From: Candidatus Dormiibacterota bacterium
Lineage (GTDB): Bacteria; Chloroflexota; Dormibacteria; CF-121
Reading direction: 5' to 3'
Assembly: GCA_036564925.1 (NCBI GenBank)
Contig: DATCOB010000025.1
Coordinates: 6,708-70,707 of the forward strand
DNA: 64,000 nt
Shown: positions 10,776 to 37,128 of the stretch, piece by piece
Numbering within the stretch: the stretch's first letter is position 1
Layout of the letters: every line of letters starts with the position of its first letter
Made by a program: the position numbers and the translations under genes
Notes under the pieces: model-generated
What the model was told of the DNA's origin: nothing
The model's input: the letters and a program-made list of their open reading frames with translations, nothing else
Database searches by the model: none

Positions 10776-11378
10776 TCACTCGGTCGGGGCGATGAGAAAG
10801 ATCCAGATGTCCCAGGCCACGTGGCTGATGATCAGCGGGGCCATCCGTTGCTCGGCGGCGTAGACGAGGCCCCAAAAGACCCCCGCGGTCGCGGCCGCCC
10901 CGGTCAGGGTGAGGTTTTCTGAGACGAGGTGGATGCCACCGTAGATGGAGGACGCCACCAGCGCGGCGCCCACCCGCCCGAAACGGGGCTGCAGGCCGCG
11001 TTGCACCAACCCGCGCCAGAAGAGTTCCTCGCCCGGGCCAATGGCCAGGGCCAGCGCGGTCGCGATGGCCGCCTTCGGCGCCTGGGCGCGCAGCTCATAA
11101 ATCTGGCCGATCTCACGCTCGCCCGCCGGCATGATTCGCCGGGCCAGCCGATCGCCGACCTGAAACACGACATACAGGGCTCCGGCCGAGCCAAGCCCGG
11201 AGGCCAGATCACGCCAGCGTGGTCGCTCCCGCCGCAACGCCCGGTCGGTCAACAGCGCGAAGAGGCCGAGGCTGCCTACCCCGACCGTCATCCGCGGCCA
11301 GAACTGCGTCTTTGGGCCCCGAAAGGCGGCCGTCCACACGATGCCGGCCAGCCCGAGCCCCACCAGTAGCCGCCTCAT
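10776..11378 (-). CDS. CPBP-family intramembrane metalloprotease (CAAX protease-like)
   Basis: EELFWRG (EExxxR), FGGIHL (FxxxH), HVAWD motifs; ATGA overlap with upstream LLM-UbiA gene. Confidence 0.8.
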   Translation of the reverse strand: MRRLLVGLGLAGIVWTAAFRGPKTQFWPRMTVGVGSLGLFALLTDRALRRERPRWRDLASGLGSAGALYVVFQVGDRLARRIMPAGEREIGQIYELRAQAPKAAIATALALAIGPGEELFWRGLVQRGLQPRFGRVGAALVASSIYGGIHLVSENLTLTGAAATAGVFWGLVYAAEQRMAPLIISHVAWDIWIFLIAPTE

Positions 11379-13348
11379 TGCAGCATGGGCCCTGCGACCA
11401 GGCCGACCAGCAGCAGGGCGCCGAAGGCGGTGTGCAGCCGGGCCGTCATCAGGTCGATCATGGCGATCGCACGGAGACTGCCGCCGGCACCAAGCTCGGC
11501 GGCACGGAGGATCCAGGCCATCAACGGCAGGCTGAAGAGCGTGAGCAACGCAAGCCGCGGCAGCGTGCCGACCATCACCCCCACGCCGACGGCAACGTAG
11601 GCCCCGAGGACGAGCATCACGTAGATCCAGTGGGCCGCGTCCCGACCCACCTGCGCGGACAGGGTAGTGAATCCATGGCGGGTGTCCTCAGCGACGTCGC
11701 GCCACTCGTTGCCGTGGAGAATCGCCGTAACGAGCAGTCCCACCGGAAGCGACACGACCAGCAGACGTGCATCGAAGAGCCCGGTCACCGCGAAGTAGGC
11801 ACCCAGCACGATCAGCGGACCCATCAGTACGAAGACCAGGGGCAAGCCGAGGGCGCGGTACTTGTACTGGAATGGTGGGGCCGTGTAGAAATAGCCACCG
11901 ACGAACCCGATGATCCCCAGGACGAGGATCGGCCAGCCTCGGTTGACCAGCAGGTAAAGCCCGAGCATCGCCGCGATGAGAAAACCGGCCCACGCCGTGA
12001 TGAAGGCGCCGCGCTCGGTGATCCGGCCCTTCAAGATAGCCATGGACATGCGGGGTGACGTGATCGAGTCGATCCCATGCCGGACGTCGTAGATCTCGTT
12101 GATCACGTTGGTACCGATGTGGAGCCCCAGCGCACCGAACAACGCAGCCAGGAAGAGCAGCCAGTGCATCCGCCCCTGCCGTAGCGCGATCGCGCCGCCC
12201 ACCGCGACGGGGAGGAGGGAGGCGGTGAAGCTGAACGGCCGAACGAGTTCCCAGGCGCCCGCGGCGCGGCGGCCGAATCGAGCGACCGGCCCCAGCCGAT
12301 CGAGGGCGCCCGCCGCGGCAGCTGCCGGGACGACGCCGCCGGAGGCGCCCCGGGCGCCGTACTCGACGGCGGCCGCCAGCACCGCGGTCACCTGCGCCTC
12401 CTCCTGCAGGATCGGCTGCAACAACGGCACGGTCATCCCCGCCTCGTGGTAGGCGGCGGCACGCGCGGCCACGTCGGAGACAGTGCCACAGAGGATAAAA
12501 GCGTCCAGCAGCTCGTCCGGGATCAATGCCCCGGCCTTGTGGTAATCCTCGGCCCGCCACGCTGCCGCGATCTCGTTGCGCAGGGCGGGATCGAAGCCGA
12601 CGCGCTTCAGCGATACGTCGCTCAGCACGGAGATCATGTAGATGACGAACGGCTCGCGCTTGGCCCGGTTCAGCGCGTCGCGCCGGCTGCTGTCGATCAG
12701 GGCGAGCAGGTAGCCCCGGAAATCGATGTCGTCGGGCGAGCGACCGTGGCTCGCGGCGGTCTCCAGGATCCGCGCCCGCATCTTCTGGAAGGCGGGCAGC
12801 GACTCGGCGGGTCGGGCCAGGTAGCCGTCGGCCTTTTGGCCGCATAGATCGAGGAACGGCGTGCGGTAGGCGGCGATGTAGATCGGGATTCGATGGGGCG
12901 GCTGAAACATTGGTTGCAGGGGGGGGACCCTGTCGTTGAGCACCAGGCGCTCGCCGCGCCAGAGGGCGCGGACCTGGTCGATCGCGTCCGAGACGCGGGC
13001 GACCGTGTCGTCGTATGGGATCGCCATCTGGGAGAGGCGAAGCGGGAGGCCGCTGCCGACGGCGAGGGTGCAGCGCCGCGGCGCGAGGTCGTCCAGCGCG
13101 GACATGGTCATGGCCAGCACGACCGGATGCCGCGTGTAGGGATTCAGCGCCCCGGCTGCGAGGCCGACCCGGTTGGTCTCGAGCCCCATGGCCGAGAGGT
13201 AGGTGATGGGATCCCGCTCGAAATAGCTGTCATGGACCCAGACCGAATCGAGTCCGAGCTCCTCGGCGCGGCGGGCCCATCGCGCGGCCTCGCGGACGTC
13301 CCCCCGAGCCGCGAGCCCCAACCCGACTCGGAACGCGAGCTCTGCCAC
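11375..13348 (-). CDS. fusion protein: N-terminal LLM-class (luciferase-like) flavin/F420-dependent oxidoreductase + C-terminal UbiA/MenA-family prenyltransferase
   Basis: Single 657-aa ORF. aa 1-~340 LLM fold (FRVGLGLAARG...LDSVWVHDSYFERDPITYLSAM...); aa ~370-657 polytopic UbiA-family with Asp-rich NVINEIYDVRHGID motif and MenA-like TM pattern. Confidence 0.75.
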   Translation of the reverse strand: MAELAFRVGLGLAARGDVREAARWARRAEELGLDSVWVHDSYFERDPITYLSAMGLETNRVGLAAGALNPYTRHPVVLAMTMSALDDLAPRRCTLAVGSGLPLRLSQMAIPYDDTVARVSDAIDQVRALWRGERLVLNDRVPPLQPMFQPPHRIPIYIAAYRTPFLDLCGQKADGYLARPAESLPAFQKMRARILETAASHGRSPDDIDFRGYLLALIDSSRRDALNRAKREPFVIYMISVLSDVSLKRVGFDPALRNEIAAAWRAEDYHKAGALIPDELLDAFILCGTVSDVAARAAAYHEAGMTVPLLQPILQEEAQVTAVLAAAVEYGARGASGGVVPAAAAAGALDRLGPVARFGRRAAGAWELVRPFSFTASLLPVAVGGAIALRQGRMHWLLFLAALFGALGLHIGTNVINEIYDVRHGIDSITSPRMSMAILKGRITERGAFITAWAGFLIAAMLGLYLLVNRGWPILVLGIIGFVGGYFYTAPPFQYKYRALGLPLVFVLMGPLIVLGAYFAVTGLFDARLLVVSLPVGLLVTAILHGNEWRDVAEDTRHGFTTLSAQVGRDAAHWIYVMLVLGAYVAVGVGVMVGTLPRLALLTLFSLPLMAWILRAAELGAGGSLRAIAMIDLMTARLHTAFGALLLVGLVAGPMLQ

Positions 13349-13415
13349 CGCTTCACCGTACCCCAGCGCGCCTCAACCCTGCAATCGGGATTGCGCTTGA
13401 TCTCATAATCGACTC

Positions 13416-14114
13416 ATGGGTCAGGAGGCTCGTGCCGACCGTATCCGCGAGATGTTTGACCAGATCGCGCAGGGGTACGACCGGCGGAACCGGCTCTTCA
13501 GCCTTGACCGGGATGGGGGCTGGCGCCGGCGTGCTGCCCGGCTTGCCAACCTGAATCCGGGCGGCACGGCACTGGACCTGTGTTGCGGGACGGGCAAGCT
13601 GGCGCACGAACTGCTGCCCTACGTCCGCCCGGGGGGCCGGGTGATCGGCATGGACTTCTCGACCGCCATGCTCGACCTGGCGCGCGGACTCGAACCCGAC
13701 GTGGAGTTCGTGCTGGGGGACGCCAGCCACCTTTCCTATCCGGACGCGAGCGTCGATGCGGTCACCATCGGCTTCGGGCTACGCAATCTCGTCGACCGTG
13801 ACGGCGCGCTGAAGGAAATGTTTCGCGTCCTCCGGCCCGGTGGCCGGCTGGTGGTGCTCGAGCTTCCACCTCCGCCTCGCGGACCGTTGCTGCGACCGTA
13901 CCGCTTTTACCTGACGCGGGTCATGCCGGCGATCGCGGGGGCGCTCAAGCGGGGGGAGGACCAGGCCTACCGGTACCTGTCGGAGAGCGTCCAGGCGTTC
14001 CCGACCCCATCGGAACTTCGCGAGCAGATGCGCGCCCTGGGATTTGGGCCGGTCGTGGTCGAACGAATGACATTTGGCATCGCCGCCATCCACGTGGCCA
14101 CCCGTCCGTCGTAG
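13416..14114 (+). CDS. menG: demethylmenaquinone/ubiquinone C-methyltransferase (MenG/UbiE)
   Basis: Class I SAM MTase; UbiE signature N-terminus RIREMFDQIAQGYDRRNRLFS, LDLCCGTGKL; 232 aa. Confidence 0.85.
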   Translation: MGQEARADRIREMFDQIAQGYDRRNRLFSLDRDGGWRRRAARLANLNPGGTALDLCCGTGKLAHELLPYVRPGGRVIGMDFSTAMLDLARGLEPDVEFVLGDASHLSYPDASVDAVTIGFGLRNLVDRDGALKEMFRVLRPGGRLVVLELPPPPRGPLLRPYRFYLTRVMPAIAGALKRGEDQAYRYLSESVQAFPTPSELREQMRALGFGPVVVERMTFGIAAIHVATRPS

Positions 14115-14137: not shown

Positions 14138-14785
14138 ATGCCCTCGCTCTGGGCGGCGCCCAACTTGTTGAGCTTCTCGCGCATCGTTGCCGCGCCCATC
14201 ATCTACGCGCTCATCGTGTCCTCTGCCCGCTACGGTTTTCTGCTCGCCCTCATCCTCTTCATCGCCGCGTCCCTGACCGATACGGTCGATGGCGAGATCG
14301 CCCGACGGCGGGGCCTCGTCTCTGCGCTGGGCATCTACCTCGACACGACCTCCGACAAGATCCTGATCGCGGTGCTTCTCATTGGGCTCGCCGTCGAGCA
14401 CCTGGCTCCCGGATGGATGGCGGCCGTCATCATCGCGCGCGAGTTCCTCGTCACGGGGCTCCGCAGTTACGCGGCGGCGCTGGGCGTGGTCATTCCCGCG
14501 GGCGGCTGGGGTAAGGCGAAGACCCTGATCACGATCGTGGCGCTGATCATGGTCCTCCTCGCCGGGGATGCGCAGCACGGCGGACTGCTATCGGCCAACG
14601 CGCCACCGGGCAGCGCGCTGCTCAGTCCGCTCGGCCCGTTCACAGCGCCGGTCTGGGCCTTGCTCATCGCCGTCATCTGGACGATCGGATCGGGGCTCGA
14701 ATACATTCGTGGGGCGATCCCCCTGCTGACCCGACCCGCTCCGCCGACGCCGCGCGCCGTGGCCCGCGCGGCTGAAGACCCCTGA
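14138..14785 (+). CDS. pgsA: CDP-alcohol phosphatidyltransferase (PgsA-like)
   Basis: PNLLSFSRIV...DTVDGEIARRRGLVSALGIYLDTTSDKIL (DG..AR...G..LD...D motif). Confidence 0.8.
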   Translation: MPSLWAAPNLLSFSRIVAAPIIYALIVSSARYGFLLALILFIAASLTDTVDGEIARRRGLVSALGIYLDTTSDKILIAVLLIGLAVEHLAPGWMAAVIIAREFLVTGLRSYAAALGVVIPAGGWGKAKTLITIVALIMVLLAGDAQHGGLLSANAPPGSALLSPLGPFTAPVWALLIAVIWTIGSGLEYIRGAIPLLTRPAPPTPRAVARAAEDP

Positions 14786-14797
14786 TCGTTCGACCTT

Positions 14798-15868
14798 TTA
14801 GAGGCGGGTGGCGGTTCGCAACAACTCCTTGAGGCGATCAGGGTGGCGGCGGTATCGTTCCCGCTCGGATGGCGATTTGGTTGCCTTTTCCAGCAGGGCC
14901 CAGAGCACGGAGTTGACCGGCGTTGGAACCTCGCAACGACGGCCGGCGTCGACCACCGCGCCGTTCAGGAATGCCGCCTCCGTCTGGCCCTTCCCCCGAC
15001 TGAGGTCCCACCATAGCGAGGGCATCTTGTTGCCGCGGGCGCCCCCGACCCGGGGCTCGAGGATCATCTGCGCCAGCAACGGTGGCAGGTTCATGACGCG
15101 GCGGACGGTCGGCACCGGAAAGCCAGGTAGAGCGACCACGGGCAGCCGCATCCGTTCCATCACGCCGGCCGCCTCCAAAAACGCCGCGCGCTCATAGCGG
15201 AACAGCTCGCGGTCGGCAAAGACGTGGCTCGGCGGGAGGTCGAGGATGGCGCTCTGGGCGTTGCCCAGGATGTTGAGCAGCAGCTTTGACCACTTCATGG
15301 CGCGAAAATCGGTGTACCGTCGGGCCTTCAGGCCCGCGTCGCTGAGTTTGCGGACCAGCGGACCGACGTTGACCTCGGGCGAGACGGGAGCCAGGGCGAC
15401 CCCGCCGCGGCGGGAATGCTGGTGAACGAGGCCGGGCTCGTCGAGGCTGACCGGCAGGGTCAGGCTGCCGGCGAGCAGGGCCTGATCGGGAAGTGCCGTC
15501 GCGATCGTCTCTTCGTTACCGACCCCGTTCTGGAAGCTGCCCAGGATGGTCCGTGCTCGCAGTAGCGGCTCCAGCTGCTCGATCGCATCCAGGGTGTCGT
15601 AGCCCTTGACCGTCAGGAAGATGTAGTCGAATGGACCTCCGGCCTCGGCCACACTCTGCCGGGCGGCGCGAACCGATTGGTTGCTGACCTTGCCCGCCAC
15701 CATGGTGCGGACGCCTTCCCGCGTCACCGCCTCGACGTGTGAGGGGCGACCGACCAGGGTGACCTCGCTCCCGCCGGCGGCCAGCCGGGCCCCGAGGAGG
15801 GAGCCGACCGCGCCGGCACCAAAGAAGAGGAACCGCGGCACCGGGGCAGGGCCCCGTCGGTCGGTCAT
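14798..15868 (-). CDS. panE: 2-dehydropantoate 2-reductase (ApbA/PanE family)
   Basis: Rossmann FFGAGAVGSLLGARLA; ApbA_C domain; 356 aa. Confidence 0.8.
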   Translation of the reverse strand: MTDRRGPAPVPRFLFFGAGAVGSLLGARLAAGGSEVTLVGRPSHVEAVTREGVRTMVAGKVSNQSVRAARQSVAEAGGPFDYIFLTVKGYDTLDAIEQLEPLLRARTILGSFQNGVGNEETIATALPDQALLAGSLTLPVSLDEPGLVHQHSRRGGVALAPVSPEVNVGPLVRKLSDAGLKARRYTDFRAMKWSKLLLNILGNAQSAILDLPPSHVFADRELFRYERAAFLEAAGVMERMRLPVVALPGFPVPTVRRVMNLPPLLAQMILEPRVGGARGNKMPSLWWDLSRGKGQTEAAFLNGAVVDAGRRCEVPTPVNSVLWALLEKATKSPSERERYRRHPDRLKELLRTATRL

Positions 15869-16492
15869 CTAGGGCGTGGTGATCTTGAGTTCGCGGCCCG
15901 TGGCCAGCCGTCCGATGTTGCTCCGATGACGGTAGAAGACCAGTCCGGCCAGGGCGATGCCCAGCAAGATCACCGACCATCCGACGGGACGCCACGCCTG
16001 CCATCCGATCAGGTGGAGAATGACGAGGCTGACGAATGCGATGGACACGGCGACCAGCGAGGCCAGCGAGGCCAGCCTCGTGAGCCGGATCACAAAGACC
16101 CAGGCGAGGGCGCTCAGGATCAGGGCGACCGGTGCCAGGACCAACATCACGCCACCGGAGGTGGCCACCCCCTTCCCGCCGCGGAACCCAAGGTACAGCG
16201 ACCAGGTATGCCCGATAACGGCCGCAAGCCCGATCAGCGGCAGCGTCACCTCGGGCGCATCCGCACCGACGATGATCCCGGTCAACACGGGAATGACGCC
16301 TTTCAGCCCATCGGCGATCAGGGTCGTGGCGAAGGCCCCGGCTCCGCCGGCGCGGTACACGTTGGCGGCCCCGATATTGCCGCTGCCCAGGGTGCGAACA
16401 TCCTGGTTTCGGTAGATTTTCATCACGAGCCAGCCCGAAGGCACCGAGCCAAGAAGGTAGCCGAAGGCCAGCAGGGCGAGCACTTTCACCAT
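15869..16492 (-). CDS. plsY: glycerol-3-phosphate acyltransferase PlsY
   Basis: LLGSVPSGWL...GSGNIGAANVYRAGG signature; 207 aa. Confidence 0.9.
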   Translation of the reverse strand: MVKVLALLAFGYLLGSVPSGWLVMKIYRNQDVRTLGSGNIGAANVYRAGGAGAFATTLIADGLKGVIPVLTGIIVGADAPEVTLPLIGLAAVIGHTWSLYLGFRGGKGVATSGGVMLVLAPVALILSALAWVFVIRLTRLASLASLVAVSIAFVSLVILHLIGWQAWRPVGWSVILLGIALAGLVFYRHRSNIGRLATGRELKITTP

Positions 16493-19827: not shown

Positions 19828-21915
19828 ATGCCCTTCGAAGCCACGCTTCCATTCAGTGCCCTGGTCGGGCAGGATCCGATGAAGCGAGCCCTACTCCTCA
19901 ACGCCGTCGACCCCGCCATTGGTGGGGTCCTGATCCGGGGCGACCGCGGCACGGCCAAATCGTCGGCGGTCCGTGGGCTGGCTCGTCTCCTTCCCGAGTA
20001 CGACGCGGTCGAGGGCTGCCCCTACCGCTGCGATCCGGCCTTGCCATCCCGGTACTGTGATAGTTGTCGGGAGCGCGCCAAGGCCGGTGCGCTGCCGGTG
20101 ACCCGACATTCCATGCGCATCGTCGAACTCCCGATCAACGCCTCGGAAGACCGGCTGGTGGGCTCCATCGACATCGAGGCGGCGGTGCGCTCCGGTACCC
20201 GTCGTTTCCAGCCGGGCGTGCTGGCCGAAGCGAATCGCAACATCCTGTACGTCGACGAGGTGAACCTGCTGGATGATCACCTGGTCGACGTTTTGCTCGA
20301 CGCGGCGGCCATGGGGGTCAATGTGGTCGAACGGGAGGGGATGTCGGTCATCCATCCAGCTCATTTCATCCTGGTCGGCACCATGAATCCGGAAGAAGGC
20401 GAGCTGCGTCCCCAACTCCTGGATCGCTTCGGGCTCTGCGTCGACGTGGAGACCCTGACCGACATCGACCAGCGTCTCCAGGTGATGGAACTGGAGCGCG
20501 ACTTCCTGATCGACGCCGGCCAGGTCGTGCGAACGGCGTCGTCGAATGAGGCCCGGCTTCGCGAGGCGATCCAGACGGCGCGAGCCCGGCTGCCGCAGGT
20601 CGGCCTTGCGGAAGCGATCCGCGCCCTGATTGCCCGGTTGTGCCTCGAAGACGCGGTGGCCGGACACCGGGCGGACCTGGTGGTGGCCAGGACAGCGCGC
20701 GCCATCTGCGCCCTGCGTGGGGGCGAGACGGTAGAGCTGCCGGACGTCCTTGAAGCCCTCGAATTGGGCCTTGCCCACCGCCGGCGTGAGCGGGCGGTCA
20801 ACGCCCCCGCCCAGGCGCAGAACCTGGCGGTGCGCGCCGCCGAGCAACTGGCGCAGATCCAGTCGACCACACCCAGCGAGAAGGGTCAGGACGTGCTTGG
20901 AGAAGCCACGCAAAGCGAAGGCGCCTCGGGCGGCGAGGCGACGGAAGGCTGGACCACCTCGCAAACGCGCGAGTCGCAGGCGACCGACGTGGCGGATGCG
21001 GAACCGGAAACCGTGATCCAGCTTCCTACCTTCAACGTCAGGAAGCTGGACCTTCCTCGAGAGCGCCAGGCACGGCGGGCTGCCGGGAAGAGAACGGCGA
21101 CCAAAAGTGAGACCAAGCGCGGCCGCTACGTCCGCAGCGCCCAGGCGGAGAAGGTGACGGATCTCGCCTTCGATGCGACGGTCCGTGCTGCGGCGCCGTA
21201 CCAACTGGGACGACGCAAGGCCGCGGTTACCGGCGGTCCGCACCTCCAGCTCGAGCGGCATGATCTCCGGCAGAAAGTCCGCGAGCGGAAGACCGGCAAC
21301 CTGATCGTCTTCGTGGTCGATGCCAGTGCCTCGATGGACGCCGAGCAGCGCATGCTGGCGACCAAGGGCGCCATCCTGTCGCTCCTGCGCCATGCGTATG
21401 TACGTCGCGACAAGGTCGCGCTGGTCGCTTTCAGTGGCCGCAGCGCCCGCGTGGTCCTGCGGCCAACGTCGAGCGTCGACCTGGCGGAACGCCGCCTCGA
21501 GCGGCTCAGCATCGGGGGGACGACGCCGCTGACGCACGGGCTGGTGACCGCCCTCAAGCTGGTCAAGACCGAACGGCTCCGCGATCCGCGCGTGTATCCG
21601 CTGGTCGTCTTGATCAGCGACGGCCGGGGGAACATCAGCCTGTTTGGCGAGGAGCCGTTGTTGGAAGCGCAGCGTGCCGCCGCCCAGGTCAAGCAGGAGG
21701 GCATCCGCGCGATCGTGATCGACTCGACCCGCGATTTCGGCAGCCAGCCCGGTCACCCGCGCAGCCGGGTGATGAGCCTGTACGGCGCCTATGCCTTCAA
21801 TGTGTGTGCCGATCTCGCGGAACGCCTCGGCGGCCGCTACTACGGCCTCTTCGACCTGTCGCAGACGGCCATCGTCGATACCGTCCAGCGTGAGATGCTT
21901 AGAACGGGTGCTTAG
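19828..21915 (+). CDS. magnesium-chelatase subunit D-like protein (degenerate AAA+ domain + acidic/Pro linker + C-terminal vWA)
   Basis: ChlI-like N-terminus (PFSALVGQD...[15 protein letters not shown], Walker A Gly to Ala), Cys-rich insert CPYRCDP...CDSCRER, C-terminal vWA with [14 protein letters not shown]; start at MPFEATL. Confidence 0.8.
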
Positions 21916-22105
21916 CAGAACAGCGAGGCCGCAGGCCGGACGCCTCAAACGCTCGCATCGCACTAAAGCGCGGCTCGCGTGGGCCGGCGGGCCCGGCTTT
22001 CGCGCGGATAGCGCCGGCGCCCCATGCGGCCTGTACGCGCAGGGCGAGGGCATTGGAATTTTGCCCGAGCCGCGCATGGGCCGCTGGACGGCGCACCGGC
22101 GCGAG

Positions 22106-22140
22106 AAAGTCTCTGTGCTCGAAGGGCAATAGAGGTAGCC
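22106..22140 (+). repeat. copy A of a ~35-nt intergenic motif AAGTCTCTGTG-N3-GAAG-N5-TAGAGGTAGCC
   Basis: AAAGTCTCTGTGCTCGAAGGGCAATAGAGGTAGCC immediately 5' of chlI-like TTG start; related to 37129..37167 and 58043..58078. Confidence 0.55.
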
Positions 22141-23172
22141 TTGGAGCGATTTACGTATCCGTTCAGCGCGATAGTCGGGCAGGACAAGATGAAGCTCGCG
22201 CTCGTCTTGAACGCGATCCACCCGGCGATCGGTGGCGTGCTGATCCGCGGTGAGAAGGGGACCGGGAAGTCCACCGCGGTCCGGGCGCTGGCCCGGCTCC
22301 TTCCCGAGCAGAACGTCGTGGCCGATTGCGTCTATCGGTGCGACCCGAATGCGCCCGAGGCGCTCTGCTCCGACTGCCGGGACCGGATCGCACGAGGCGA
22401 GACCCTGCCGAGGGCGCGCCGCCGAATGCGGGTCGTCGAACTGCCCATCAACGCGTCCGAGGATCGGGTTGTCGGGGCGATCGACATCGAGGCCGCCATC
22501 AAGAGTGGCGAGCGTCGCTTCGAGCCGGGGGTGCTGGCCGAGGCGAACCGCAATATCCTCTACGTCGACGAGGTGAACCTCCTCGACGATCACCTCGTGG
22601 ACGTGCTGCTGGACGCCGCGGCGATGGGCGTGAACGTGGTCGAACGCGAGGGGATCTCCATCTGGCACCCGGCGCGATTCATTCTGGTCGGCACCATGAA
22701 CCCCGAGGAGGGCGACCTGCGCCCACAGTTGCTGGACCGGTTTGGTCTCGCGGTCGACGTCGAAGGGATCAAGGACATCGGCCAGCGCGTGCAGATCGTG
22801 GAACGCCGCGAAGAATGGGAGTCTGACCCGGCTGGGTTCAGCCAGCGCTTCGCGGACGAGGATGCGCAGATCGGCCAGCGTATCGCGGAGGGGATCGTGC
22901 GCTTCCCGAAGGTCACCGTGCCGGTGGCGATCCTTCGGGGGCTGGCGGAGCTCAACGTCAGCCTCCAGGTGGATGGGCACCGGGCCGACCTCGTGGGCCG
23001 CAAGGCGGCCCAAGGCCTCGCCGCGTACCGTGGCGTTGGCGAGGTGGGCGTGAACGAGGTTAACGAGGTCGCCGACATGGTGCTGGCCCATCGAGTGAAG
23101 GCCGGGGGACGGCGCGAGCTTGGCTCCATCGGTCAGAGCATCTCGGGGGCATCGCGAGCGTCCAGAAGCTAG
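22141..23172 (+). CDS. magnesium-chelatase subunit I-like AAA+ ATPase
   Basis: TTG start with GAGG SD; [10 protein letters not shown], intact Walker [10 protein letters not shown], Walker [13 protein letters not shown], Cys-rich insert CVYRCDP...CSDCRDR; 344 aa. Confidence 0.8.
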
Positions 23173-23199
23173 CCGGGCGCGAAGGGAGTCGCAAGCTCC

Positions 23200-24456
23200 T
23201 TGGCTCGGCTTGCGCGGGAACACCGTCTCATTTTTCAATACTTGACGCGGTCGATCGCAGGCGATGACCGGACACTGCTGACGCGACTGAACGCGATCAT
23301 CGACGAGCTGCCGGCCAGCCTCCTCCGAGTCAAGGATGCCGAGCTGGGCGAGCACCTGATCCAGATCCATGAGGCGGTCGACCGGCTGGAGGCGGTCTTT
23401 GGCGGCGGTTTGCGCCGCTTTGACCGGTCCGGGGACTGCAAGGCCGACGGGGCACTGTCGTCGGTGGCCTGGCTGCGCTGGCGATGCAAGCTCTCCGGTG
23501 GTGCGGCGGCCGAACGGGTGAACATGGCCCGCCAGCTCGAGCAACTGCCCGAAACCAGGAAGGCCTTCGCCGGCGGCGAGGTCGGGTACCAGCATGTCGC
23601 GCGGCTGGCGCGGACGGCCGAGAACGTCGGCGTGGCCGCGGTTCGCCAGCAGGAGGGGAATCTGCTGCAGGCCGCCCGCACCATGGATGCCAGCCAGTTT
23701 GCCGGGGTAGCGCGGCGCTTCGAGTACCAGCTCGATCAGGCGGCGGCGCTGACGGAGGCGAACCGCGCCCATACGCGACGCTACCTGCACCTGAGTGAGC
23801 CGACCAACGGGCTCGTCCATCTCGAGGGGCTGCTCGATGCCGAGGGAGGCGCCACGTTGAAGACCGCCCTGAATGCCCTGCTGCCGCCGCCGAAGCAGGA
23901 CGACGACCGCACCGCGGGGCAGCGACGCGCCGACGCCCTGGTCGACCTGTGCCGGCAGCGGCTGGATGGCCGCCACGCGGGCCAGGTGGGCGGGCAGCGG
24001 CCGCACCTCGTCATCACGGCGAGTGCCGAGGCCCTGGCCGGCCTCCCCGGCGCCCCGCCGGCGGAGCTCGCCGGGGTGGGCGCGATCCCCCTCGAGACGG
24101 CGCAGCGCCACGCCTGCGACGCGTCGGTAAGCCTGATTCTCGCCCAGGGCGAGCTGGACCGCGAGCGAGCGGGCCACGCCAGCCAGAAGATCCCGCCGGC
24201 GACGCGCCGGGCGCTGGTCGCCCGCGACCGTGGCTGCGTCGTCAATGGCTGTCAGCGGCCGCCGGCCTGGTGCGATGGACATCACGTGGTCTGGTGGACG
24301 CGGGGTGGCCGGACGGAGCTGTCCAACCTGGCGCTGGTCTGCGGGCGCCATCACCGCATGATCCACGAAGAAGGCTGGAGCCTGAGCCGGAACGTGGGTC
24401 AGTGGGTCACCACGCCACCGGCCAGCAGGGTCGCGGCGCATGCCCGGTCCGCCTGA
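23200..24456 (+). CDS. DUF222 + HNH endonuclease domain protein (actinobacterial '13E12-like' family)
   Basis: C-terminal HNH motif CVVNGCQRP..CDGHHVVWW..GG.T...NLALVCGRHHRMIH; long alpha-helical DUF222-like N-terminus; 418 aa. Confidence 0.8.
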   Translation: MARLAREHRLIFQYLTRSIAGDDRTLLTRLNAIIDELPASLLRVKDAELGEHLIQIHEAVDRLEAVFGGGLRRFDRSGDCKADGALSSVAWLRWRCKLSGGAAAERVNMARQLEQLPETRKAFAGGEVGYQHVARLARTAENVGVAAVRQQEGNLLQAARTMDASQFAGVARRFEYQLDQAAALTEANRAHTRRYLHLSEPTNGLVHLEGLLDAEGGATLKTALNALLPPPKQDDDRTAGQRRADALVDLCRQRLDGRHAGQVGGQRPHLVITASAEALAGLPGAPPAELAGVGAIPLETAQRHACDASVSLILAQGELDRERAGHASQKIPPATRRALVARDRGCVVNGCQRPPAWCDGHHVVWWTRGGRTELSNLALVCGRHHRMIHEEGWSLSRNVGQWVTTPPASRVAAHARSA

Positions 24457-24492
24457 CCCCGGGAAATTCTGATCTGCAGATAAACTCCGTTC

Positions 24493-26295
24493 GTGTCCAC
24501 GCCCACCCACTTGATCCGTGCCATCTCGGTTATCGCCCATGTGGACCACGGCAAGACGACATTGTCGGACCGCCTCCTCGAGTTCACCGGGACCGTTGCG
24601 CCCCGCGACATGGTGGAGCAGGTCCTCGATCAACTCGATCTCGAGCGCGAGCGCGGCATCACGATCAAGGCGCAGGCCGTCCGCATGCTGTACCAGGCGG
24701 ACGATGGCAATACCTACCAGATCAACCTCATCGACACGCCCGGCCACGTGGATTTTTCCTACGAGGTCTCGCGGGCCCTGGCGGCCTGTGACGGCGCCAT
24801 CCTGGTGGTGGACGCATCGCAGGGGATCGAGGCGCAGACGCTCGCCAACGTCCACCAGGCGCTCGACCACCACCTGACGATCGTGCCGGTCGTCAACAAG
24901 ATCGACCTGCCGCATGCCGATCCCGAGCTAGTGCGCGAGGAGATCCAGAAGGTGATCGGGCTTCCGGCCGAGTCCGTCATCTTCGCCAGTGCGCGGCAGG
25001 GCATTGGCACCAAAGAGATCCTGGAGGCGGTCGTCCGCGAGGTGCCGCCCCCGACCGGCGACCGGTCATCTCCGCTGCAGGCGCTGATCTTCGATGCCAA
25101 GTTCGACGCCTACCGCGGCGTGGTCACCTATGTGCGTGTGCTCGAAGGAACGCTCCGCCCCAAGATGCGGATCCAGATGATGCAGACCGGCAGGAGCTTC
25201 GAAGTCGACGAAGTGGGGGTCTTTCGGCCCCACCGCACCGAGGTGGAGGACCTCTCCGCCGGCGAGGTCGGATACCTGATCGCCAACATTCGCAACGTTC
25301 GCGATTCCCGGGTCGGCGATACCGTGACCGATGAGGCGAGGCCTGCCGCCGCCCCGCTGCCGGGCTATCGCCACGTGACGCCGATGGTCTTTGCCGGGCT
25401 GTTCCCGACCGACACCGACCAGTACCAGCAGTTGAAGGAGGCGCTCGAGCGGCTGCAACTCAACGATGCCTCGCTCGTGTACGAGCCGGAGTCCTCGGCA
25501 GCGCTGGGCTTCGGATATCGGTGCGGCTTCCTCGGGCTGCTTCACATGGACATCGTCCAGGAGCGGCTCGAGCGCGAGTTCAACCTCACGCTGCTCGCCA
25601 CCGCGCCCACGGTCGAGTATCGGGTCCGGCTCCGGAATGGTGAGGAGGTGCCGGTCGACAACCCTGACAAACTGCCGGATCCCGCCGAGATCGAGTCGAT
25701 CAGCGAGCCGATGGTGCTGGCTACGGTCGTGGTGCCGAGCACCTACGTGGGCAACATGATGGAGTTGAGCCAGGAGCGTCGGGGACAGTTCTTGAACATG
25801 GAGTACCAGCCGGGCGACCGGGTCGTGATCACCTATCGGATGCCGCTGGCGGAGATCATCCACGACTACAACGACCAGCTCAAGTCCCGCAGCAAGGGCT
25901 ATGCCTCGCTGGACTACGAACTCGTCGGCTTCGAGGAAGCGAACCTCGTCAAGCTCGACATCCTGGTTGCGGGGTCGCCGGTCGATGCCCTCTCGATGAT
26001 CGTGGAGCGGAGCAAGGCGCATCAGCAGGGGCGGCGGCTGAGCGAGAAACTGAAGACCCTCATTCCGCGTCAGCTCTTCGAGGTCCCCATCCAGGCGGCG
26101 ATCGGCGGCAAGATCGTCGCCCGCGAAACGGTGCCCGCCCTGCGCAAGGACGTGATCGCCAAGTGCTACGGCGGTGATGTGACCCGCAAACGCAAGCTGC
26201 TCGAAAAGCAAAAAGAGGGAAAGAAGCGCATGAAGCGGGTCGGGAACGTCGAGATCCCGCAGGAGGCTTTCATGGCCGTATTGAGCCTGGACTGA
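24493..26295 (+). CDS. lepA: elongation factor 4 (LepA)
   Basis: [23 protein letters not shown]-domain, LepA C-terminal domain; 600 aa. Confidence 0.95.
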
Positions 26296-33811: not shown

Positions 33812-35188
33812 CTACGGCGTGCTGGCCGGCGCCGGTGACGGATGCGGCTCCTGGATGTTTTGCTGTCCCTGGATCTGCATCTGCCCCGCGATCAGGTCGG
33901 GCGCGCGGCCGTTCTCGCGGATGTAGGCCATGGTCACGATCATCGCCATGGTCAGCACGGTCATGACCATCAACAGGCGCTGCTCGCCGCGCCGGGCGCT
34001 CCCCCATACGACGCCGGGCAAGCCACGCAGGTACCAGACGACCGCCGCGATGGCGATCAACGTGTAGGTCATCAAGGCGAGGACCTTCCAGGGGATCATG
34101 GCTCCCAGCGGATTGATCAAGCCGCCCTGCCAGAAGGGACGGTCGAGCCCAGCCGCCTGCACCTGGTCCAGGGTGAAGGCGAGATGGTAGGGCATCGCCG
34201 CGAGCAGGGTGGTGAGGACCATGCCCGCCGCCATCAGCTTCAGCAGACCTGCGCCGCGGGCCTCGTTCGTCCGTAGCCGCCGGGCGAAGTAGAAGGTCGC
34301 CGTGAGGAACATGATGCCGAGCAGGGTCATCTGCCACAGGAAAACGGTGCTGAGGCTTCCCCGCATCATCTTGTACCAGCTGCCGTAGGTGTGGAGCTGG
34401 ATCTCCTTGGCGTATGAGTAGCCGATGATGGGCTGGAGCAGAGTCATCGCCACGCCCCAGATCAGTCCAAAGCTGCCGGCCCAATCGTAGAAGGCTTTGT
34501 CCTCGGCGGTCTTCGCCCGGAGGAACTTGATGGCGCAGAACCCGCCGAAGGCGAAGCCGATATAGGCGAGGTTGCCGACCGTCCGGTGAAGGGTCAGCGG
34601 ATACGACGTCGGGTTGAGCACCAGGCGGATGGGATTGGTCGGATTGGTCGGGGTCAACATGTAGCTGGCCACGATGTCGATCATGTAGACCTGGATGAAG
34701 GAGGCGATCGCGAGCAGGCCGCCCAGCGCCATGTGCACACCTTTGAACGACCGCAACGGATCCCAGGTGTAGTACCAGAGATAGGCGAGAACCACCTGCA
34801 GGACGAATGACCAGGCCTCGATGAACAGGGGCCACCAGGCAATCGTCACCATCGTCGTCCAGAAATGGCCCCAGAGTCCGACCAGCAAAACCGTGATCAG
34901 CAGGATGGCGATAAAGGAGCTGAAGCTGAAGTAAACCGTGATGAACCGGCCCAGGCCATGGGCCAGGCGATCGTAACGCGGACGTTGGCGCATGTAGCCG
35001 AGCCACTCGATCGCCGGGCCGAGCTCGGCGGCTCCACTGATCAGACCAGCGATCAGGATATGGATCGAAAAGAGGCCGCCGATCGCCGCCCGCGCCGCCA
35101 CGCTGTTGCTGCCCTGGGGCGCGGTCGCCGGAAGCTGGGTCGCGAGAAGGTGGAACCAGGGTGCGATGACCGCGATCAACCCGCTCAC
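33812..35188 (-). CDS. polytopic membrane protein of unknown function, paralogous to 37152..38408 (last gene of Rieske/cyt b operon)
   Basis: GTG start overlapping cyt b stop (GTGA); >10 TM; shares N-terminal signature SIHILIAGL...LGPAIEWLGYMR with the 418-aa protein (LIHIIFGSF...LGPTFEWIGVVR); longer 755-aa ORF rejected. Confidence 0.6.
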   Translation of the reverse strand: MSGLIAVIAPWFHLLATQLPATAPQGSNSVAARAAIGGLFSIHILIAGLISGAAELGPAIEWLGYMRQRPRYDRLAHGLGRFITVYFSFSSFIAILLITVLLVGLWGHFWTTMVTIAWWPLFIEAWSFVLQVVLAYLWYYTWDPLRSFKGVHMALGGLLAIASFIQVYMIDIVASYMLTPTNPTNPIRLVLNPTSYPLTLHRTVGNLAYIGFAFGGFCAIKFLRAKTAEDKAFYDWAGSFGLIWGVAMTLLQPIIGYSYAKEIQLHTYGSWYKMMRGSLSTVFLWQMTLLGIMFLTATFYFARRLRTNEARGAGLLKLMAAGMVLTTLLAAMPYHLAFTLDQVQAAGLDRPFWQGGLINPLGAMIPWKVLALMTYTLIAIAAVVWYLRGLPGVVWGSARRGEQRLLMVMTVLTMAMIVTMAYIRENGRAPDLIAGQMQIQGQQNIQEPHPSPAPASTP

Positions 35189-36351: not shown

Positions 36352-36355
36352 GGCC

Positions 36356-36847
36356 TCAGATGTCCTCGGTGAATCGGTTTTCGATGTACAGCGTCGTGCC
36401 GTCGATCCGGTGCACGAACTCAGGCAGTGGTTTAGGCGGCGGACCTCCCACGTTGTGACCGCTGATGTCGTAGAGGCCGCCATGGCAGGGACAGAGGAAC
36501 TGGCCGAGCGTCTTTTCCCAGCGCACCGGACACTGCATGTGCGAGCAGACGTTGGAGAGCACCTTCGTCTGGCCGTTCACCCTGACCACGTACACCGCCT
36601 GCTTGACCTCGGGCACGTCCCACGCATTCTGGGGAAAAGCCACTTCGAATTTGGTTGGTTCGCGATCCGGCACGCCGCTGATGTCACCGACCATTCGCTC
36701 CACGTACTGCTGGCGGCGAAACAACGGTGACAGTAGGAAGCCGATGATCGGAATTCCCAGGGCGAGCCCGACGATGGCGCCGGAGAGCTGGGTGCCGAGG
36801 ATGCCGAACTGGCGACGGCTCAGCCGCCGGGGATCAGGAAGCGCCAT
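36356..36847 (-). CDS. Rieske [2Fe-2S] iron-sulfur protein
   Basis: Tat signal SRRQFGILG; Rieske boxes CSHMQC ... CPCHGG; 163 aa. Confidence 0.9.
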   Translation of the reverse strand: MALPDPRRLSRRQFGILGTQLSGAIVGLALGIPIIGFLLSPLFRRQQYVERMVGDISGVPDREPTKFEVAFPQNAWDVPEVKQAVYVVRVNGQTKVLSNVCSHMQCPVRWEKTLGQFLCPCHGGLYDISGHNVGGPPPKPLPEFVHRIDGTTLYIENRFTEDI

Positions 36848-37070
36848 AGCGGATGAATCCGTAGAGCACCCCGGCCGTGCCGAGGACGATGAACAGCAGG
36901 GTGACCGTGATCGCGCCGCCCACCAGCCAGAAGGTGAGCACCGACTGATCGTGGCCGCGCTTGAACCAGCGACGAAGCCCGGCGACGACGATCCCGATCA
37001 GGAGCAGCGTCAGCCCCACCATGAAGCCGCTGATCAGCGCCAAATAAAAAAATGTTTGCAGACTACCCAT
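36834..37070 (-). CDS. small two-TM membrane protein (hypothetical, operon with Rieske)
   Basis: 78 aa, two hydrophobic helices, overlaps Rieske start by 14 nt. Confidence 0.45.
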   Translation of the reverse strand: MGSLQTFFYLALISGFMVGLTLLLIGIVVAGLRRWFKRGHDQSVLTFWLVGGAITVTLLFIVLGTAGVLYGFIRYGAS

Positions 37071-37128
37071 TCGGGGTTCCCTTGAAAGGGAAGTTAGCGA
37101 GCCCGCAGGGCGAGCCGCGCTTTCGCGC

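What the first reader, a model, noticed from the sequence alone, without database searches (positions are those of the whole stretch)
11375..14114. Single-polypeptide fusion of an LLM-class flavin/F420 oxidoreductase with a MenA/UbiA prenyltransferase, next to MenG/UbiE
A single uninterrupted 657-aa ORF joins a complete luciferase-like monooxygenase-family domain (aa ~1-340) to a complete polytopic UbiA/MenA-type prenyltransferase (aa ~370-657, Asp-rich NVINEIYDVRHGID). It is co-transcribed with a CPBP intramembrane protease (4-nt overlap) and sits beside the demethylmenaquinone methyltransferase. Prenyltransferases of quinone biosynthesis are normally stand-alone. Tethering a reductase/oxygenase-type flavoenzyme to MenA suggests a coupled modification of the naphthoquinone head group or the isoprenoid tail at the membrane, for example an F420/FMN-dependent reduction analogous to MenJ-type side-chain saturation, or a novel ring modification. 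I am not aware of a described LLM-UbiA fusion.
Basis: partly seen in the sequence, partly recalled or inferred. Interest (0 to 1): 0.65.

Follow-up and report, generated by a model that had tools for sequence, protein, structure and literature searches.

The report
Reductase-fused menaquinone prenyltransferase with CPBP partner
One gene in an uncultured soil bacterium joins a probably F420-dependent reductase domain to MenA, the membrane enzyme that attaches the lipid tail of vitamin K2, and is always followed by a small membrane hydrolase gene; the fusion is real, widespread in its lineage, not found in the searchable literature, and probably couples quinone-ring reduction to vitamin K2 assembly.

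Summary
ORF 11375..13348 (-) encodes 657 aa: a luciferase-like (LLM) TIM-barrel domain, a variable 30-residue linker, and a 9-helix UbiA/MenA prenyltransferase.

It is not an artefact. The identical protein occurs in three assemblies. Intact fusions occur in at least 272 species-level genomes of Candidatus Dormiibacterota and Chloroflexota class Limnocylindria, and both halves are equally conserved.

New findings:
- A CPBP/Rce1-like gene follows the fusion in 76 of 76 loci, and follows stand-alone MenAs of the same subfamily in 46 of 65 loci, sometimes with MenG next.
- A second, independent family fuses a PPOX/FDOR-type flavin/deazaflavin domain to MenA, again followed by a CPBP.
- Other operons add a gene resembling NAD(P)H quinone oxidoreductases.

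Best reading (inferred, not shown): an F420H2-dependent naphthoquinone head-group reductase tethered to MenA, analogous to NdbB/NDC1. MenJ-like side-chain saturation is less likely. I found no literature on it. It is a new variant of a known kind.

The parts
11375..13348 (-). Whole fusion ORF: 657 aa, GTG start, TGA stop
   Evidence: Identical protein in three assemblies. AF2 model with mean pLDDT 93.3 and pTM 0.77.
12344..13348 (-). N-terminal luciferase-like (LLM) TIM-barrel domain, aa 1-335. Mer-like and probably F420-dependent. No signal peptide or TM segment, so cytoplasmic.
12254..12343 (-). Variable Ala/Gly-rich interdomain linker, aa 336-365
   Evidence: Only 11-47% identity across the family, and no invariant column. 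The only low-confidence stretch in the model is residues 342-349.
11375..12253 (-). C-terminal UbiA-superfamily, MenA/UBIAD1-type polyprenyltransferase domain, aa 366-657, about 9 TM helices
12068..12109 (-). First Asp-rich motif, N414-x-x-N-E-x-x-D421-x-x-x-G-x-D427, in cytoplasmic loop TM2-3
   Evidence: Invariant in 61 fusions. Same pattern in stand-alone and PPOX-fused MenAs.
11684..11710 (-). Second Asp-rich motif, N547-E-W-R-D551-x-x-x-D555, in cytoplasmic loop TM6-7
   Evidence: Invariant in 61 fusions.
10776..11378 (-). CPBP/Rce1-like intramembrane glutamic hydrolase, 200 aa. Its start overlaps the fusion's stop by 4 nt.
   Evidence: PF02517 E 6e-16. Directly downstream in 76 of 76 fusion loci, in the PPOX-MenA loci, and in 46 of 65 stand-alone MenA loci. 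Catalytic motifs EExxxR, His and HxxxD are invariant in 129 copies.
13416..14114 (+). UbiE/MenG demethylmenaquinone methyltransferase, transcribed divergently
   Evidence: NF001244 226.3 bits against a cutoff of 216. Divergently adjacent in 41 of 75 fusion loci, and within 5 kb in 48 of 80.
13349..13415 (.). 67-nt divergent intergenic region between the fusion and MenG, presumed to hold shared promoters
   Evidence: Sequence read. The consensus scan found no sigma-70-like site, which is uninformative for this lineage.

Best explanation
The ORF encodes a genuine bifunctional membrane enzyme of menaquinone biosynthesis.

Shown:
- The C-terminal half is a catalytically intact MenA/UBIAD1-type prenyltransferase.
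- Its two Asp-rich loops lie on the cytoplasmic face of the membrane.
- The N-terminal half is a cytoplasmic Mer-like TIM-barrel hydride transferase, joined by a flexible linker on that same face.
- Mer's own substrate residues have been replaced in it by a different, strictly conserved set.

Inferred:
- The N-domain uses F420H2.
- It reduces the naphthoquinone head group, either oxidised DHNA (2-carboxy-1,4-naphthoquinone) or demethylmenaquinone. The quinol form would then be available for prenylation and for the subsequent MenG methylation.
- This is the job done by the unrelated NAD(P)H dehydrogenase NdbB/NDC1 in phylloquinone synthesis. The chemistry is the one done by F420H2-dependent FDOR-A/Ddn on menaquinone.

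The enzyme works in a conserved operon with a catalytically intact CPBP-type intramembrane hydrolase. That hydrolase's role in the pathway is unknown.
For: The fusion is real and selected:
- Identical in three assemblies.
- Present in at least 272 species genomes.
- Both halves are equally conserved while the linker is free to vary.

The MenA half:
- Best hits are only MenA models, and UBIAD1 in the PDB.
- Both Asp-rich motifs are invariant.
- Stand-alone relatives at 40-48% identity pass the curated menA cutoff.
- MenG is adjacent in 41 of 75 loci.
- MenA-CPBP-MenG operons exist among relatives.

The LLM half:
- All top sequence and structure matches are F420 enzymes, and Mer is clearly first.
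- Mer belongs to the F420 'reductase' Type A clade, and cofactor use in this fold follows phylogeny (PMC8518648).
- The cis-peptide glycine is invariant (G66).
- Mer's Glu6, Asp96, residue 178 and His36 are replaced by invariant Gly11, Leu101, Arg179 and Ser41. The pocket is therefore new, and partly hydrophobic and cationic.

Topology: the hydropathy count puts the LLM domain and the prenyltransferase active site on the same side.

Convergence:
- An independent family fuses a PPOX/FDOR-type domain to MenA, again with a CPBP downstream.
- Five stand-alone MenA-CPBP operons add a gene resembling PIG3-type NAD(P)H quinone oxidoreductases.

Precedent:
- The demethylphylloquinone ring must be reduced before MenG acts (Fatihi 2015, as cited in PMC5299476).
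- F420H2-dependent menaquinone reduction by Ddn is established (PMC8498797).
Against: - No experiment exists, so cofactor and substrate are both inferred.
- All F420-LLM NCBIfam models score below their curated cutoffs, and NCBI names the protein only 'LLM class flavin-dependent oxidoreductase'.
- The residue after the cis-peptide glycine is Ala or Ser. The jMer study argues that small side chains there cannot press on F420 (PMC11094777).
- No LLM-fold enzyme in the F420 review's tables is a quinone reductase. The known ones are FDOR-A and Fqo.
- F420 biosynthesis in this lineage was not tested. No such genes lie in the window, and no literature was found.
- Most MenAs of the subfamily lack any fused reductase, so the function is an add-on and not a requirement.
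- MenG adjacency is absent in the Limnocylindria-type clade.
- The fusion's own UbiA half fails the curated menA cutoff, 69.5 against 102.15.
- Model coordinates could not be inspected, so the relative orientation of the two active sites is not verified.
Confidence: 0.45

Rival explanations
1. Side-chain saturation. The LLM domain reduces an isoprene double bond of the nascent (demethyl)menaquinone, as MenJ does in mycobacteria, and yields MK-n(H2).
For: - The reductase-clade LLM is tethered to the enzyme that installs the tail.
- Type A LLMs include enzymes that act on lipids (fPKR) and on a C=C bond (LxmJ).
- The F420 review notes that some FDORs 'may be fatty acid saturases'.
Against: - MenJ is an FAD-dependent geranylgeranyl-reductase-type enzyme, unrelated to LLMs (own knowledge).
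- F420H2 is an obligate hydride donor. Its characterised C=C substrates are activated (dehydroalanine, enones), not isolated isoprenoid alkenes.
- The parallel partners (PPOX/FDOR-type, PIG3-like quinone oxidoreductase) point to the quinone ring and not the tail.
- The invariant Arg179, Arg104 and Ser41 suggest a polar or anionic substrate moiety.
Confidence: 0.12
2. A respiratory or antioxidant F420H2:menaquinone oxidoreductase. The LLM domain feeds electrons from F420H2 into the mature quinone pool, as Ddn does, and uses the MenA domain mainly as a quinone-binding membrane anchor.
For: - F420H2-dependent menaquinone reduction with a respiratory or antioxidant role is established for Ddn.
- The cytoplasmic domain is tethered at the membrane.
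- The window also encodes several quinol-oxidising complexes.
Against: - The MenA catalytic motifs are strictly conserved, so the C-domain is not a mere anchor.
- The conserved partners are biosynthetic (MenG) or operonic with stand-alone MenA (CPBP).
- Fusion to a low-abundance biosynthetic enzyme suits substrate channelling better than bulk electron flux (inference).
Confidence: 0.12
3. An FMN-dependent monooxygenase domain that modifies the ring, for example by hydroxylation or another oxygenation of the naphthoquinone, giving a non-canonical quinone.
For: - PF00296 is named for FMN monooxygenases.
- NCBI's label is 'flavin-dependent'.
- No curated F420 model passes its cutoff.
- The Ala/Ser at position 67 differs from Mer's Val/Ile.
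Against: - The top 24 NCBIfam LLM hits are F420 families.
- No flavin reductase partner is conserved nearby.
Confidence: 0.08
4. Not menaquinone at all. The UbiA half prenylates a different aromatic or other acceptor, and the LLM and CPBP process that product as a specialised lipid or metabolite.
For: - The UbiA half fails every curated MenA cutoff.
- MenG is not adjacent in the Limnocylindria-type clade.
- I could not check whether the genomes hold another MenA or the DHNA pathway.
Against: - All best hits are MenA or UBIAD1, and no other UbiA subfamily comes close.
- Close stand-alone relatives pass the menA cutoff and sit in MenA-CPBP-MenG operons.
- JGI annotates the fusions as DHNA prenyltransferase.
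Confidence: 0.08
5. Assembly or gene-calling artefact that joins two separate genes.
For: - High-GC MAG sequence.
- Some database relatives have garbled C-termini, such as P0140 and P0462.
Against: - Identical ORF in three independent assemblies.
- 60 more intact ORFs at 55-85% identity with in-frame linkers of varying length.
- More than 120 clusters carry both domains.
Confidence: 0.01

Closest known systems
MenA (1,4-dihydroxy-2-naphthoate polyprenyltransferase) and its eukaryotic homolog UBIAD1
   Same: UbiA fold with about 9 TM helices. Both Asp-rich motifs match the MenA/UBIAD1 pattern (NxxxDxxxGxD and NxxRDxxxD). Best sequence and structure matches. MenG is a neighbour.
   Different: It carries a 335-aa N-terminal redox domain. 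It scores below the curated menA cutoffs, 69.5 against 102.15. It is always paired with a CPBP gene.
Mer, F420-dependent methylene-tetrahydromethanopterin reductase (F420 LLM Type A 'reductase' clade)
   Different: Mer's catalytic Glu6, Asp96, residue 178 and His36 are replaced by invariant Gly, Leu, Arg and Ser. It is membrane-tethered, bacterial, and has no link to C1 metabolism.
NdbB / NDC1, the type II NAD(P)H dehydrogenase of phylloquinone biosynthesis
   Same: The proposed role: reducing the demethyl-naphthoquinone ring between the MenA and MenG steps (PMC5299476).
   Different: Unrelated fold and cofactor (FAD/NAD(P)H), and a separate protein. The analogy is functional and inferred, not tested.
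Ddn / FDOR-A F420H2-dependent menaquinone reductases
   Same: The proposed chemistry: F420H2 hydride transfer to a naphthoquinone at the membrane (PMC8498797).
   Different: Split beta-barrel fold, not fused to MenA, and acting on the mature quinone pool. The second fusion family found here (PPOX-type-MenA) is nearer to this fold.
MenJ (mycobacterial menaquinone side-chain reductase)
   Same: A reductase genetically linked to late menaquinone biosynthesis genes (own knowledge).
   Different: FAD-dependent geranylgeranyl-reductase family, a stand-alone protein, acting on the tail. No homology to the LLM domain.
Rce1 / CPBP (type II CAAX prenyl endopeptidase family)
   Same: The downstream gene has the PF02517 domain, with the EExxxR, His and HxxxD motifs intact. 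Rce1 recognises prenylated substrates (own knowledge).
   Different: About 200 aa. It is operonic with a quinone prenyltransferase in several lineages. Its substrate is unknown, and I found no report of this association.

Membership tests
UbiA prenyltransferase superfamily (PF01040) | Pfam score above the gathering threshold | tested here: met
   102.5 bits against 34.2, aa 378-613.
UbiA prenyltransferase superfamily (PF01040) | Two Asp-rich Mg2+/diphosphate-binding motifs in cytoplasmic loops, and a polytopic fold of about 9 TM helices | tested here: met
MenA (DHNA polyprenyltransferase) equivalog | Score above the curated NCBIfam equivalog cutoff | tested here: not met
   TIGR00751 gives 69.5 against 102.15, and NF004749 gives 167.3 against 277. 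Relatives at 40-48% identity (P0305, P0324, P0141, P0169) do pass TIGR00751. The fusion is therefore a divergent branch of a MenA subfamily, not a threshold-passing member.
MenA (DHNA polyprenyltransferase) equivalog | Genomic association with other menaquinone genes | tested here: met
   A UbiE/MenG that passes its equivalog cutoff lies 67 nt away. It is adjacent in 41 of 75 fusion loci. MenA-CPBP-MenG operons occur among relatives.
MenA (DHNA polyprenyltransferase) equivalog | Prenylates 1,4-dihydroxy-2-naphthoate, and is the genome's MenA | not testable with these tools
   This needs an enzyme assay or complementation.
Luciferase-like monooxygenase / LLHT superfamily (PF00296) | Pfam score above the gathering threshold, and a (beta/alpha)8 barrel | tested here: met
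   187.1 bits against 27.9. AF2 pLDDT is above 90 across the domain. Foldseek TM-score is 0.86-0.90 to Mer.
F420-dependent LLM, Type A (Mer/fPKR/LxmJ 'reductase' clade) | Closest characterised relatives are F420 Type A enzymes and not FMN enzymes | tested here: met
F420-dependent LLM, Type A (Mer/fPKR/LxmJ 'reductase' clade) | Non-prolyl cis-peptide (Gly followed by a hydrophobic residue) after beta3, backing the deazaflavin | tested here: inconclusive
   Gly66 is invariant at the aligned position. The next residue is Ala (54 of 61) or Ser (7 of 61), where Mer has Val or Ile (PMC11094777). The cis conformation could not be inspected.
F420-dependent LLM, Type A (Mer/fPKR/LxmJ 'reductase' clade) | Passes a curated F420-LLM family cutoff | tested here: not met
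   The best is TIGR03841 at 99.9 against 213.65. All the others are also below cutoff.
F420-dependent LLM, Type A (Mer/fPKR/LxmJ 'reductase' clade) | Binds and uses F420, and the host makes F420 | not tested
   No F420 biosynthesis genes lie in the 64-kb window. No literature was found for this lineage. F420 production is confirmed in some Chloroflexi (PMC8498797).
Mer (methylene-H4MPT reductase) itself | Catalytic Glu6 and pterin-binding Asp96, residue 178 and Phe233 | tested here: not met
   Invariant replacements are Gly11, Leu101 and Arg179. Only the aromatic position is kept, as Tyr237. The NF002619 and TIGR03555 cutoffs are also not met. It is not a Mer.
CPBP / Rce1-like intramembrane glutamic protease (downstream gene) | PF02517 above the gathering threshold, and catalytic motifs EExxxR, His and HxxxD/N | tested here: met
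   58.9 bits against 22.4. The motifs are invariant in 129 MenA-linked copies. Substrate and activity are not testable here.
UbiE/MenG methyltransferase (divergent neighbour) | Curated equivalog cutoff | tested here: met
   NF001244 at 226.3 against 216, and TIGR01934 at 220.1 against 158.35.
MenJ-type menaquinone side-chain reductase | FAD-dependent geranylgeranyl-reductase-family fold | tested here: not met
   The redox domain is an LLM TIM barrel. This rules out membership of the family. It does not by itself rule out a MenJ-like function.

The most novel reading that the evidence does not exclude
MenA plus a CPBP-type intramembrane hydrolase is an unrecognised two-protein core of late menaquinone biosynthesis, used across several bacterial phyla.

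In this reading the CPBP performs a pathway step that has no assigned enzyme in these organisms. Candidates are hydrolysis of DHNA-CoA at the membrane, or handling and release of the prenylated quinol.

Hydride-transfer modules have been recruited to this core at least three separate times: the Mer-like LLM domain, the PPOX/FDOR-type domain, and the gene resembling NAD(P)H quinone oxidoreductases. The Dormibacteria fusion would then be an F420-driven 'menaquinone metabolon', and the first quinone-reducing enzyme of the LLM fold.
Probability: 0.2. Interest if true: 0.8.

Novelty: new variant of a known kind. Interest (0 to 1): 0.6.

Why it matters
Candidatus Dormiibacterota and Limnocylindria are abundant, uncultured soil and freshwater lineages, and their respiratory biochemistry is known only from genomes.

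- A reductase hard-wired to MenA would identify how these aerobes keep the oxygen-sensitive naphthoquinol intermediates reduced between prenylation and methylation. That step has a known enzyme only in cyanobacteria and plants (NdbB/NDC1).
- It would add a new physiological role for F420 in bacteria, and a new substrate class for the LLM fold.
- The strictly conserved MenA-CPBP pairing, found here also around stand-alone MenAs, points to an unassigned accessory factor of vitamin K2 biosynthesis.
- The independent fusions and operons are a natural experiment. They make the hypothesis directly testable by expression and quinone profiling.

Tried and rejected
Modelling:
- The first AF2 model, built from 28 sequences at about 80% identity, was poor (pLDDT 59.8) and was not interpreted. 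A deeper 81-sequence alignment fixed this.
- Model coordinates are not exposed to scripts, so I could not measure the distance or orientation between the two active sites.
- The afdb50 library was unavailable.

Search for a 'split' version with a separate LLM gene next to MenA:
- The nearest stand-alone LLM, P0137, sits beside another LLM and an amidohydrolase, not a MenA.
- Its closest relatives are nearly all fusions or fragments of fusions.
- The closest stand-alone MenA, P0141, is on a 1.5-kb contig with no LLM upstream.

Context of distant fusions:
- The P0121 contig had no DNA on file.
- Beyond the CPBP and MenG, neighbours in distant loci are unrelated: thiolase, TetR, an ABC transporter, FTHFS.

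Rest of the window:
- It holds no men, mqn or F420 biosynthesis genes.
- One look-up failed because of a start-codon mismatch.

Literature:
- Six searches gave nothing on an LLM-UbiA fusion, on MenA-CPBP, or on F420 or menaquinone in Dormibacterota.
- The Mer-F420 structure paper was not held, so I used the jMer paper instead.

Other:
- The promoter and terminator scan was uninformative.
- P0140 and P0462 have an LLM half with a non-matching, Arg/Ala-rich C-terminus. I judge them to be frame-shifted gene calls and not alternative architectures.
- I considered and set aside the analogy to eukaryotic CAAX processing (prenylation, Rce1 cleavage, methylation). The methyltransferase here is a threshold-passing UbiE/MenG, and the prenyltransferase is a small-molecule UbiA-type enzyme.

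Full report
**Observation**

The window holds an uninterrupted ORF at 11375..13348 on the minus strand, 657 aa with a GTG start.
- Pfam places a luciferase-like domain (PF00296) at aa 7-306 (E 6.8e-55). It places a UbiA prenyltransferase domain (PF01040) at aa 378-613 (E 2.9e-29).
- The next gene downstream, 10776..11378 (-), is Rce1-like/CPBP (PF02517). It overlaps the fusion's stop codon by 4 nt.
- 67 nt upstream, on the other strand, lies a methyltransferase (13416..14114). It passes NCBI's curated cutoff for UbiE/MenG, 226.3 against 216 bits.

**Is the fusion real?** Yes.
- The identical protein is encoded in two NCBI MAG assemblies and one ENA assembly. The window is contig DAIRGT010000011.1 of GCA_036794385.1, a Candidatus Dormibacteraeota MAG.
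- More than 120 protein clusters at about 80% identity carry both Pfam domains.
- A scan of one genome per species found relatives in 272 genomes. The 80 best were all full-length, at 55-82% identity. They are labelled Dormiibacterota, Limnocylindria or generic Chloroflexota (taxonomy).
- I extracted 60 further intact ORFs from those loci. The LLM half is 59-85% identical to the window's and the UbiA half 58-86%. The 30-residue linker (aa 336-365) is only 11-47% identical and has no invariant column.
- That pattern is what two functional domains joined by a flexible tether look like. It excludes a frameshift at about 12300-12400.
- In a library clustered at 50% identity the full-length fusion collapses to essentially one other cluster (P0121). 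It is therefore a lineage-specific invention and not an ancient architecture.

**The prenyltransferase half**
- Every significant NCBIfam hit for aa 365-652 is a MenA model. All are below their curated cutoffs: TIGR00751 gives 69.5 against 102.15, and NF004749 gives 167 against 277.
- Both Asp-rich motifs are invariant in all 61 fusions (N414xxNExxD421xxxGxD427 and N547ExRD551xxxD555). So is the YTAPPFxYKYRA loop.
- Stand-alone relatives at 40-48% identity (P0305, P0324, P0141) do pass the curated menA cutoff.
- I therefore treat this half as a divergent but catalytically intact member of a MenA subfamily. I note plainly that the fusion itself fails the curated threshold.

**The redox half**
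- All top NCBIfam hits for aa 1-330 are F420-type LLM families: Mer, Rv3093c, Rv3520c, NP1902A and others. The first FMN-type family appears only at E 8e-10. None passes its cutoff.
- Against the PDB, five Mer entries lead (E 2.7e-32 to 3.5e-21). F420-dependent FGD1 follows at 3e-12, and FMN monooxygenases come at 1e-8 or worse.
- The second AF2 model (81-sequence alignment, mean pLDDT 93.3, pTM 0.77, only residues 342-349 disordered) gives Foldseek TM-scores of 0.86-0.90 to Mer. The top 20 Foldseek hits are all F420 enzymes.
- In the published classification Mer belongs to 'Type A', the F420 reductase clade, together with fPKR and LxmJ. Cofactor choice in this fold tracks phylogeny (PMC8518648).
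[quoted passage not shown] Mer's catalytic Glu6, Asp96, residue 178 and His36 are replaced by invariant Gly11, Leu101, Arg179 and Ser41. Phe233 becomes invariant Tyr237.
- So the domain has a Mer-like scaffold and cofactor site with a new, strictly conserved substrate pocket. It is not a Mer.
- One caveat: the residue after Gly66 is Ala or Ser. The jMer authors argue that small residues there cannot press on F420.

**Topology**

The N-terminal domain has no signal peptide or TM segment, and the linker is positively charged. Counting nine hydrophobic helices from a cytoplasmic N-terminus places both Asp-rich loops, and the YKYR loop, on the cytoplasmic side. The redox domain and the prenyltransferase active site therefore face the same compartment. 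I could not check their mutual orientation because model coordinates are not exposed.

**Surroundings: the conserved partner is the CPBP, not MenG**
- Across the 80 fusion loci, a CPBP gene lies directly downstream on the same strand in 76 of the 76 loci with enough sequence.
- MenG is divergently adjacent in 41 of 75, and within 5 kb in 48 of 80. It is absent nearby in the Limnocylindria-type clade.
- Other neighbours are not conserved. The rest of the window has no men, mqn or F420 biosynthesis genes.

**The pairing extends beyond the fusion**
- I used the single metagenome scan with an alignment of stand-alone MenAs of the same subfamily. Of the 65 loci with at least 500 nt downstream, 46 have a CPBP directly downstream.
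- Clustering all flanking ORFs showed CPBP as the only strongly recurrent partner (49 loci). A UbiE/MenG family came next, in 9 loci. For example, L146 is MenA-CPBP-MenG, and its third gene passes the UbiE cutoff.
- The CPBP catalytic motifs (EExxxR, the conserved His, HxxxD) are invariant in 129 MenA-linked copies. It is therefore presumably an active hydrolase.

**Convergent redox partners**
- The exhaustive search also turned up MenA-like proteins with other N-terminal extensions.
- One family of about 450 aa (P0169 and about 20 clusters) carries a 145-residue split-beta-barrel domain.
  - A profile of it hits PNPOx-like structures, including the F420-binding Rv2991, MSMEG_3380 and Rv1155.
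  - NCBIfam's 'F420-dependent PPOX class' models match 9 of 10 members, below cutoff.
  - Cofactor choice in that fold cannot be read from sequence (PMC8518648).
- This second fusion is also followed by a CPBP with a 4-nt overlap.
- In a rough NJ tree its MenA domain sits among Planctomycetota-type stand-alone MenAs, far from the LLM-fused clade. The sister of the LLM-fused clade is a stand-alone MenA. This indicates independent fusion events (no bootstrap).
- In five stand-alone loci the CPBP is followed by an MDR-family gene. Its best NCBIfam match is the PIG3 family of putative NAD(P)H quinone oxidoreductases, 237 against 296.8, below cutoff.
- Three unrelated hydride-transfer modules are thus associated with the same MenA-CPBP core.

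**Mechanism**

Shown:
- A conserved, intact MenA-type prenyltransferase.
- A conserved Mer-like barrel with a remodelled pocket.
- Placement of both on the same membrane face.
- An obligatory CPBP partner.
- Frequent MenG linkage.
- Independent recruitment of other reductase-type modules.

Established knowledge:
- In phylloquinone synthesis the demethylnaphthoquinone ring must be reduced by NdbB/NDC1 before MenG methylates it (Fatihi 2015, as summarised in PMC5299476).
- F420H2-dependent FDOR-A enzymes reduce menaquinone (PMC8498797).
- DHNA and demethylmenaquinol are air-sensitive quinols (own knowledge).

Inference:
- The LLM domain is an F420H2-dependent reductase of the naphthoquinone head group. 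It acts on oxidised DHNA, on demethylmenaquinone, or on both, and is tethered to MenA so that the quinol form is produced where it is needed.
- The invariant Arg179 and Arg104 could bind the DHNA carboxylate or the quinone oxygens. This is speculative.
- I put this reading at about 0.45.

Rivals:
- MenJ-like tail saturation: 0.12.
- A Ddn-like respiratory F420H2:MK oxidoreductase: 0.12.
- An FMN monooxygenase that modifies the ring: 0.08.
- A non-menaquinone substrate: 0.08.
- An artefact: 0.01.
- The remaining probability covers a non-catalytic domain or something not considered.

The CPBP's role is open. Its family acts on prenylated substrates, which fits a prenyl-quinone context. A role as a membrane thioesterase for DHNA-CoA or as a product-handling factor is only a hypothesis.

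**Comparison and novelty**
- The parts belong to known superfamilies (UbiA/MenA, LLM, CPBP, UbiE).
- The combination was not found in any of six full-text searches.
- Databases label it either 'LLM class flavin-dependent oxidoreductase' or 'DHNA octaprenyltransferase'.
- It is not a Mer, because the defining residues fail. It is not a MenJ, because the fold is different. It is only a sub-threshold MenA.
- I class it as a new variant of a known kind. The wider MenA-CPBP association and the triple recruitment of redox modules are the more novel elements.

**Verdict**

The finding is confirmed and the fusion is genuine. Interest is 0.6. The case is not categorically new and the function is not shown. 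It is, however, a specific, testable lead on an unassigned step of menaquinone biosynthesis, and on F420 use, in a major uncultured lineage.

Noticed in passing
L088:8001-9958 and L089:8001-9958 (proteins P0169, P0271-P0287, P0205, P0225): A second, independent fusion family of about 450 aa: a PPOX/FDOR-type split-beta-barrel domain of about 145 aa joined to a MenA that passes the curated menA cutoff. It is followed by an Rce1-like CPBP gene with a 4-nt overlap.
   Followed up: yes
L092-L171 (metagenome loci), e.g. L091:6001-8648 and L146:4001-6233: Stand-alone MenAs of the same subfamily have a CPBP gene directly downstream in 46 of 65 loci. In 9 loci a UbiE/MenG follows or lies nearby. In 5 loci a gene resembling PIG3-type NAD(P)H quinone oxidoreductases follows the CPBP.
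   Followed up: yes
proteins P0188, P0144, P0222: Other N-terminal additions to MenA-like proteins: Cupin_2-MenA (456 aa), HTH_17-MenA (384 aa), and an ABC-permease (BPD_transp_1)-MenA (570 aa). Contexts and frequencies were not examined.
   Followed up: no
window 33812-38408 (-): An operon-like run of two CydA-like genes (Cyt_bd_oxida_I, 458 and 418 aa) flanking cytochrome b (388 aa), a Rieske protein (163 aa) and a 78-aa ORF. This is an unusual combination of quinol-oxidising modules (L085 coordinates plus 22578).
   Followed up: no
window 40046-42568 (-): An 840-aa protein combining a universal stress protein domain (Usp) with PF08369 (PCP_red, a protochlorophyllide-reductase-subunit-type domain), next to an ABC-2 transporter pair.
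   Followed up: no
window 14138-16492: MenG is followed by three genes: a CDP-alcohol phosphatidyltransferase (14138-14785, +), a ketopantoate-reductase-like ApbA gene (14798-15868, -) and PlsY (15869-16492, -). The CDP-OH transferase follows MenG in most loci of the roughly 80%-identity clade, so lipid and quinone genes are linked there.
   Followed up: partly
L084:1-2502 (protein P0137): The rare stand-alone relative of the fusion's LLM domain (45% identity) sits between a second LLM gene and an amidohydrolase, with a 4-nt overlap. This may be a secondary escape of the domain into another pathway.
   Followed up: partly
proteins P0140, P0462, P0427: Database proteins with a fusion-type LLM half (about 59% identity) but an Arg/Ala-rich C-terminus that does not align with the UbiA half. 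Some are on very long contigs. They are most likely frame-shifted gene calls in long-read assemblies, but this was not verified.
   Followed up: partly
window 19891-24915 (-): the ORF listing reports a 1674-aa open frame that overlaps called genes on the opposite strand (AAA/VWA and DUF222 genes). It is almost certainly a spurious antisense ORF typical of 67% GC DNA.
   Followed up: no
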